Shown one piece after another: positions 62,926 to 63,135 of a stretch of 64,000 bases of DNA (its first letter is position 1; each line of letters begins with the position of its first letter). The stretch is from positions 21,204,001 through 21,268,000 of the forward strand of contig OZ024762.1 in NCBI GenBank assembly GCA_964016885.1. Reading direction: 5' to 3'. The stretch comes from Eledone cirrhosa. Its lineage: Eukaryota. Position numbers and translations under genes: made by a program. The notes under the pieces are model-generated. The model was given only the letters and a program-made list of their open reading frames with translations, had not been told where the DNA came from and did no database searches.

Positions 62926-63135
62926 GTGAGAAAAACCACAGACCCTCCATCTCAACTCACCTTTTGAAAAGCAGAAGAACTGCGAAACCGGTAAAGGAAC
63001 CAAATAAATATATATATTTAAAAAAAAAATAAGACTCCAGTTGCATTTTCGATTTCATCTCTTTTTCTTTATACTTTCACTCGTGTAGGACACCTCGGTT
63101 ATTTTTCATTTTGTAAAAAAAACCTCACTTTCTAA
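62926..63135 (+). mobile_element. 210-bp mini-element with U3-A8 hammerhead (62960-62997)
   Basis: cctt-TTGAAAA-gcag aagaa ctgc-GAAA-ccgg-TA^aagg. Confidence 0.85.

What the first reader, a model, noticed from the sequence alone, without database searches (positions are those of the whole stretch)
62926..63135. Young 210-bp family with a U3-A8 covariant hammerhead core
Seen: three near-identical copies with the same ends (29347-29556, 39430-39640, 62926-63135) and a partial fourth. All read TTGAAAA instead of CTGANGA, with intact stem I (cctt/aagg), stem II (gcag/ctgc) and GAAA-ccgg-TA. Known: C3 and G8 form a tertiary Watson-Crick pair, and U3-A8 is a tolerated compensatory variant. Inference: a recently mobile non-autonomous element whose ribozyme would be missed by standard CUGANGA searches.
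Basis: partly seen in the sequence, partly recalled or inferred. Interest (0 to 1): 0.75.

Follow-up and report, generated by a model that had tools for sequence, protein, structure and literature searches.

The report
Penelope retrotransposon leader with variant hammerhead
This repeat is the short end-piece of a young, protein-coding Penelope-type jumping gene, and its unusual self-cutting-RNA motif is a variant already described; the newer point is that short copies pile up at a likely transcription start while long copies run straight past it, which hints that the element copies two different RNA forms.

Summary
In detail: three near-identical copies, a partial fourth, and a type I hammerhead motif with U3-A8. 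It is not a separate non-autonomous element. It is the pLTR/5' leader of a young Neptune-type Penelope-like retrotransposon (ORF1, then RT + GIY-YIG) with over 12,000 copies. It shows the known one-sided tail, head-to-head pairs and (TA)n targeting. U3-A8 in Penelope hammerheads has been in print since 2014 (about 1,300 hits in Schistosoma). Stem III is a palindrome, so the ribozyme is predicted to work only as a dimer. This scan had already noted Penelope hammerheads, one with U3-A8, on other DNA of this genome. New here: 48 of 100 copies start 30 nt after a TATA box that they lack, so they are likely promoterless copies of the mRNA leader. In contrast, 0 of 30 ORF1-linked leaders stop there. 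A sister family (6,191 exact hits) behaves alike although its core reads GCAA instead of GAAA. Long copies therefore likely come from an endless or upstream-started template, with or without ribozyme cleavage. No RNA data were available.

The parts
62926..63135 (+). pLTR / predicted mRNA leader of a Neptune-type Penelope-like element, from the predicted transcription start to the end of the tail, inserted in (TA)n
   Evidence: 99.5% identical over 218 nt to the ORF1-linked pLTR in L032; flanks
62960..62997 (+). Minimal type I hammerhead motif: stem I 62960-63/62994-97, core TTGAAAA 62964-70 (U3, A8), stem II 62971-83, GAAA 62984-87, palindromic ACCGGT 62987-92, predicted cleavage between 62993 and 62994
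   Evidence: cleavage not tested
63068..63073 (+). TTTATA, first 3' end of the family (position 148); likely reverse-transcription start that matches the (TA)n target
   Evidence: 36 of 100 copies end here
63074..63141 (+). Optional tail of about 65 nt ending in TATATA (position 216), the second 3' end; ORF1 follows 22 nt later in full elements
   Evidence: 54 of 100 copies end here; junction with ORF1; 85 exact junctions
29347..29559 (-). Second solo copy, starts at position -2, (TA)n on both sides
39430..39644 (-). Third copy, tailed arm of a head-to-head pair
39640..39765 (+). Fourth, partial copy (positions 23-148): tail-less inverted arm, CTAC subfamily with 3-bp stem I
25000..25455 (.). 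Head-to-head pair of a sister family (B), motifs at 25155 (-) and 25255 (+): U3-A8 core, GCAA in place of GAAA, same ACCGGT palindrome

Best explanation
The 210-bp unit is the terminal repeat (pLTR) of a young, protein-coding Penelope-like retrotransposon, likely of the Neptune type, and the short copies are likely promoterless DNA copies of its mRNA leader, carrying a U3-A8 hammerhead predicted to cut only as a dimer. Shown: the full element is pLTR - ORF1 (401 aa) - ORF2 (RT, CX4CX2C linker, GIY-YIG; 775 codons open, in the -1 frame) - about 1 kb - pLTR. Copies end at two TATA-containing points and sit in (TA)n. About half are in head-to-head pairs with the tail on one arm, about half start at one point 30 nt after TATAAAA, and ORF1-linked leaders do not stop at that point. 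Inferred: the endonuclease nicks (TA)n; the nick primes reverse transcription at UAUA at leader position 148 or 216; on a capped linear transcript the enzyme runs off at the cap and leaves the 150- or 210-bp solo. Long copies come from a template with no end at that start site (circular, multimeric or started upstream), which is how a new full copy regains the TATA box. The ribozyme is uncut in the templates of the short copies; its role in making the long template is possible but not shown.
For: RT + GIY-YIG ORF 1 kb upstream of the unit. Both ORFs open in L152; 818 RT homologues, 119 of the best 120 with CX2-5CX2C. Exact counts: 12,331 for a 32-mer in the unit, 6,009 for the hammerhead, 2,401 for the TATA region, 207 for the ORF junction, 85 for pLTR-ORF1. 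Among 100 copies (four reclassified by eye): 48 start at -7..+8 with a sharp left edge at -4, 32 extend upstream, 4 start at 67-73. 3' ends are 148 (36) or 216 (54). Of 24 head-to-head pairs, 22 have a tail on one arm and 22 are concordant for passing or not passing the start point (p=2e-4). A TATA-like box lies at -30 to -32 of the hotspot in all three related families, with TCAGT at the start in family C. ORF1-linked leaders stopping at the hotspot: 0 of 30 vs 48 of 100 (p=1e-7); family B 0 of 30 vs 17 of 35 (p=2e-6). Computed energy of the double hammerhead is -18.9 kcal/mol against -4.7 per monomer, and +0.7 with the A15.1-U16.1 pair forced. Literature.
Against: The transcription start is inferred from copy ends and motif spacing only. 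In D. virilis Penelope the promoter is internal and TATA-less (PMC2377424 passages), so an internal promoter inside the 210 nt is not excluded. The CTAC subfamily is 35 of 81 sampled copies but 2 of 21 typed ORF1-linked leaders; it is older (2.4% vs 1.0% divergence) and my pattern favours young copies, but non-coding source copies would also give this. In the 210-nt RNA, stem I of the hammerhead has a computed pairing probability of only 0.03. The 100 copies are the first exact matches on one chromosome, not a random sample. The Neptune assignment rests on motifs compared by eye, not on a tree.
Confidence: 0.8

Rival explanations
1. One reading: a self-contained non-autonomous element (SINE- or retrozyme-like) with its own promoter and an active U3-A8 ribozyme, spreading from short source copies.
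For: Short copies outnumber ORF1-linked ones by more than 100 to 1. Penelope promoters can be internal. The CTAC variant is scarce among ORF1-linked leaders. A 2026 preprint links animal retrozymes to pLTRs (abstract only). About 2,400 non-coding copies keep the TATA box and could be transcribed.
Against: The unit is 99.5% identical to an ORF-linked pLTR. The main variants also occur in ORF-linked copies. No head-to-tail arrays of the 210-nt unit were seen among 100 copies. The short copies lack the TATA box.
Confidence: 0.12
2. The hammerhead is the working part of productive copying: the two motifs in one transcript dimerise through ACCGGU, cut and ligate, and the resulting circle is the template that gives long copies with no stop at the start site (the model of Cervera and de la Pena).
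For: 0 of 30 ORF1-linked leaders stop at the hotspot and 19 run past the TATA box. Paired arms are concordant. The dimer is stable in computation. U3-A8 and a self-complementary stem III are kept in three families at 44-57% RT identity, with compensatory changes in stems I and II.
Against: Family B shows the same pattern with GCAA in 98 of the first 100 listed copies. Family C has a U-U mismatch at the base of stem I. In an anole Poseidon, ribozyme mutants did not affect insertion in vitro and no RNA reads ended at the cleavage site (PMC11167929).
Confidence: 0.3
3. The motif is a weak or vestigial ribozyme in this lineage, kept as a dimerisation or protein-binding structure; long copies arise without cleavage (read-through, multimers or template jumps).
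For: Sister families with a broken GAAA or weak stem I reached 6,191 and 736 exact hits. 88 of 100 copies span the cleavage site. A full head-to-tail dimer exists (L157). Reported in vitro activity of such motifs is low.
Against: A spanned site is also expected after religation. U3-A8, G5, A6, A9, G12 and A15.1-U16.1 are all kept across the three families. The natural U3-A8 pair is described as compensatory and active in vitro in other hammerheads (PMC3088659 section 8).
Confidence: 0.4

Closest known systems
Minimal type I hammerheads in pLTRs of metazoan Penelope-like elements (Cervera and de la Pena 2014, PMC4209133; parts 1-2 of 4 read)
   Same: Located in the pLTR, short stem I, palindromic stem III, mostly solo or in close opposite-strand pairs; U3-A8 variant reported in Schistosoma Cercyon elements (about 1,300 hits); dimer and circle model.
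   Different: Here stem II is 4 bp with no extra base after A9, and the family is very uniform. A sister family has GCAA, for which one search (hammerhead ribozyme + A13C) found no paper.
Neptune clade of EN+ Penelope-like elements (Craig et al. 2021, PMC8557442; passages, section 11 and supplement look-ups)
   Same: C-terminal GIY-YIG with CCHH, CX2-5CX2C linker with Neptune-like spacing, GxKF and DKG motifs, (TA)n targeting, inverted pLTRs, one-sided tail.
   Different: Two ORFs joined at TTT TTA G in the -1 frame. The paper's abstract calls canonical EN+ elements single-ORF, but its Fig. 1 legend allows an ORF1 separated by a frameshift; I could not see the figure to tell for which clade. 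The tail is about 65 nt rather than 30-40.
Poseidon PAc of Anolis (Frangieh et al. 2024, PMC11167929; parts 1-2 of 4 read)
   Same: Two internal reverse-transcription starts that define the tail; hammerhead near the ORF start; uncut RNA used as template.
   Different: There the start site is not homologous to the cut DNA and lies inside the ORF; here both 3' ends fall on TATA in the leader, matching the (TA)n target.
Animal non-LTR retrozymes (bioRxiv 10.64898/2026.07.22.740005; abstract and outline only)
   Same: Short non-coding hammerhead repeats tied to Penelope pLTRs.
   Different: Retrozymes are tandem units with their own sequence; this unit is the pLTR itself and was not seen in head-to-tail arrays.

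Membership tests
EN+ Penelope-like element | PLE-type RT followed by a C-terminal GIY-YIG endonuclease | tested here: met
   Pfam RVT_1 (E 5e-7) and GIY-YIG (E 7.6e-5) above cut-off in L031; 818 homologues
EN+ Penelope-like element | pLTRs as partial tandems or inverted repeats; 5' truncation; optional tail at one end | tested here: met
   24 head-to-head pairs, 22 with a one-sided tail
EN+ Penelope-like element | Hammerhead motif in the pLTR | tested here: met
Neptune clade | CX2-5CX2C linker and CCHH motif; (TA)n targeting; GxKF and DKG present (unlike Hydra) | tested here: met
   CGRSNCGTC...CKGC...H...H in ORF2; motif positions; linker spacing matches Neptune rows rather than Nematis rows by eye
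Neptune clade | RT phylogeny groups with named Neptune elements | not tested
Type I hammerhead ribozyme | Core YUGANRA...GAAA...UH with a 3-8 pair and three helices | tested here: met
   Core and helices I and II present; helix III forms only in a dimer
Type I hammerhead ribozyme | Site-specific self-cleavage | not testable with these tools
   Needs an assay; 4 of 100 copies start at 67-73, no clear hotspot
Type I hammerhead ribozyme (Rfam families) | Match to a curated hammerhead model | tested here: not met
   No hammerhead family among 9 matches at E up to 10
Non-LTR retrozyme / independent non-autonomous element | Own unit, in head-to-tail arrays, not part of a coding element | tested here: not met
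   The unit is the pLTR of a coding element; no arrays of it among 100 copies
Programmed -1 ribosomal frameshift | X XXY YYZ heptamer in the ORF1 frame, ORF2 in the -1 frame, downstream stimulator | tested here: inconclusive
   T TTT TTA in frame in families A, B and C, and first ORF2 Met lies after the GLKF motif. Hairpin about -9 kcal/mol in A, none in B. TTTTTTAG also reads as a splice acceptor.

The most novel reading that the evidence does not exclude
The copy ends are a genome-scale record that a Penelope-like element uses two RNA templates: the capped linear mRNA, whose leader is copied from tail to cap and dumped as thousands of promoterless 210-bp solos, and an RNA circle made by a dimeric U3-A8 hammerhead, which alone yields full-length copies and restores the upstream TATA box. 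The sister family would then show that a GCAA core still works in vivo.
Probability: 0.25. Interest if true: 0.65.

Novelty: new member of a known kind. Interest (0 to 1): 0.35.

Why it matters
As a ribozyme variant it matters little: U3-A8 in Penelope hammerheads is published. The family is useful because it is young and abundant enough to read mechanism from copy ends. How Penelope-like elements rebuild a promoter in front of a new copy, and what their hammerhead is for, are open questions. The clean split (short copies stop at the predicted start, ORF1-linked ones do not), repeated in a sister family with a damaged-looking core, gives a direct test pair: one family with GAAA, one with GCAA, same architecture.

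Tried and rejected
Repeat finder and whole-window Rfam scan were swamped by microsatellites. A DNA search of the own genome found nothing, likely because common words are skipped; patterns were used instead. No RNA holder listed; the contigs of X1, X3, X4 and X5 are of unrecorded kind and showed no well-supported joint, so they say nothing on expression or splicing. Their depth falls about fourfold across the hotspot, in line, but I do not count it as independent. MITE or TIR reading rejected: copies extend into an RT ORF and have variable 5' ends. Splice-acceptor reading of the 5' hotspot rejected: no shared upstream exon. Core versus flank mutation rates within the family (11 of 972 vs 99 of 5,704) are uninformative, since copies decay after insertion. 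The divergence figures were discarded (the reference had a 9-nt duplication) and redone. The family B row had a wrong offset and was redone. ORF1 has no Pfam match and 3 unnamed homologues; the protein atlas gave no answer. Lunse et al. 2017, Przybilski and Hammann 2007 and Arkhipova et al. 2017 were not held and may bear on core variants and on the frameshift. Searches for a printed account of the start-site split and of a two-ORF Neptune found only the papers cited; supplements of Cervera 2014 were not read. Target-site duplications cannot be read in (TA)n.

Full report
OBSERVATION. The window is AT-rich, microsatellite-rich animal DNA from a 3.0-Gb genome. The unit at 62926-63135 has full copies at 29347-29556 and 39430-39640 (both minus strand, about 96%) and a partial copy at 39640-39765. 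All four carry TTGAAAA - GCAG/CTGC - GAAA - CCGG - TA; the fourth has a 3-bp stem I. The 38-nt motif occurs exactly 6,009 times in the genome (control 0) and a 32-mer further 3' occurs 12,331 times. A C3-G8 version of the family was not found, so U3-A8 is fixed in it. Rfam does not see the motif.

WHAT IT IS. Many copies continue upstream. One kb upstream lies an ORF with RT and GIY-YIG domains. In L032 and L152 the unit flanks a 4.7-4.9 kb element: pLTR, ORF1 (401 aa), ORF2 (775 open codons), about 1 kb, pLTR. The window copy is 99.5% identical to the ORF1-linked pLTR of L032. ORF2 has GLKF, DKG, a CX4CX2C linker and CCHH; the linker spacing resembles the Neptune rows of Craig et al. 2021 and not the Nematis rows (by eye), and Hydra is excluded by its described motifs. 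No tree was built. There are 207 exact ORF junctions and 85 exact pLTR-ORF1 junctions. Private divergence averages 1.6% over 81 copies: 1.0% for the CACC subfamily and 2.4% for CTAC. The family is young.

ANATOMY OF COPIES. I took the first 100 matches (one chromosome). 3' ends fall at position 148 (36) or 216 (54), both on TATA and followed by (TA)n. 48 copies lie in 24 head-to-head pairs, 22 with the tail on one arm. This is the published Penelope layout (PMC8557442 passages) and fits two internal reverse-transcription starts (PMC11167929). 5' ends, after four alignment artefacts were reclassified by eye: 48 at -7..+8 with a sharp edge at -4, 32 further upstream, 8 at 9-66, 4 at 67-73, 8 beyond. 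TATAAAA begins 30 nt before the A at -3. Two related families show the same: family B (RT 57% identical) has CATAAAAA at -32 and a hotspot at TCAGA; family C (44%) has TATATATA at -31 and short copies starting at TCAGT (the four short pairs of C were picked by spacing). This is inference; no RNA run was listed, and D. virilis Penelope has an internal promoter.

THE SPLIT. If long copies came from the same capped RNA, leaders attached to ORF1 should often stop at the hotspot. None of 30 does (30 of 85 examined): 19 run past the TATA box, 1 stops at -17, 10 stop inside the leader (p=1e-7 against 48 of 100). Family B gives 0 of 30 against 17 of 35 (p=2e-6). The two arms of a pair agree on passing the start point in 22 of 24 cases. 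Long copies therefore likely come from a template with no end there: a circle, a multimer, an upstream-started RNA or efficient template jumps. Cervera and de la Pena proposed a ribozyme-made circle. Two searches and the scan's own notes gave no account of this split, but key papers were not held.

THE RIBOZYME. U3-A8 is known in nature (PMC3088659 section 8) and in Penelope pLTRs, where a dedicated descriptor gave about 1,300 hits in Schistosoma (PMC4209133). Stem III is A15.1-U16.1, one C-G pair and a 2-nt loop. A monomer is unfavourable, while two copies pair through ACCGGU (-18.9 kcal/mol against -4.7 each), as described for this class. In the 210-nt RNA stem I is mostly predicted unpaired with its partner (0.03). 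Across families A, B and C the U3-A8 pair and a self-complementary stem III are kept, with compensatory changes in stems I and II, which argues for selection on the fold. Against a needed catalytic role: family B has GCAA in 98 of its first 100 listed copies yet reached 6,191 exact hits, family C (736 hits) has a U-U at the base of stem I, and 88 of 100 family A copies span the site. Activity is untested.

TWO ORFS. In all three families ORF1 ends shortly after CAT TTT TTA G and ORF2 is in the -1 frame with no early Met. Two unnamed ORF1 homologues also end in FL(D/E) followed by a similar tail. A -1 frameshift is likely, but family B lacks a downstream structure and TTTTTTAG is also a splice-acceptor pattern. 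The idea is in print for some Penelope-like elements (Fig. 1 legend of PMC8557442) and was noted by this scan in another genome.

VERDICT. Observation confirmed; interpretation partly supported. A new member of a known kind: the pLTR/leader of a Neptune-type element with a published hammerhead variant. The element identity is close to certain; the leader and two-template steps are inferred (overall 0.8). Interest 0.35, mostly for the start-site split and the GAAA/GCAA sister pair. The -30 TATA and initiator spacing rule and the hammerhead numbering are recalled knowledge, not from a call.

Noticed in passing
window 25000-25455; L167, L171: Sister Penelope family B, 6,191 exact hits, with U3-A8 plus GCAA instead of GAAA in 98 of the first 100 listed copies; same two-ORF layout, two 3' ends and start-site hotspot.
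   Followed up: yes
L158:500-3430: Third related family C (736 exact hits): core TTGACAA starting 3 nt after a TCAGT start, weak stem I, stem III self-complementary only with two G-U pairs; about half of the copies seen read GGTCG.
   Followed up: partly
L152:2315-5754: ORF1 (401 aa, no Pfam match, 3 unnamed homologues, R/N/Q/P/Y-rich C-terminal part) overlaps ORF2 at TTT TTA G: -1 frameshift or splice acceptor.
   Followed up: partly
window 7107 (-) and 7250 (+), 54956 (+), 59269 (-), 40957 (-): Other type I hammerhead motifs of unrelated families: four with the canonical C3-G8 core and 6-nt palindromic stem III (7107/7250 form a head-to-head pair), one weak U3-G8 candidate.
   Followed up: no
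window 63002-63007: AATAAA just after the hammerhead; if used in the 3' pLTR it would end the mRNA before both priming sites. Not conserved at this place in families B and C.
   Followed up: no
window 62990-62996: The hammerhead's stem III region reads CG|GTAAAG, like a splice donor; an intron touches the hammerhead in D. virilis Penelope.
   Followed up: no
window 62810-62915: Directly upstream of the finding lies a possible degenerate hammerhead-like end of another element (CAGAAGA...GAAA), suggesting nested insertion at the same (TA)n.
   Followed up: no
window 63160-63345: SINE-like repeat next to the finding (recognised from memory, not tested).
   Followed up: no
L157:683-9173: Two full units of the element head to tail, sharing the same frame breaks.
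   Followed up: no
L031:8673-9998 and L032:39-620: An unrelated Penelope-like element sits between two copies of this family.
   Followed up: no
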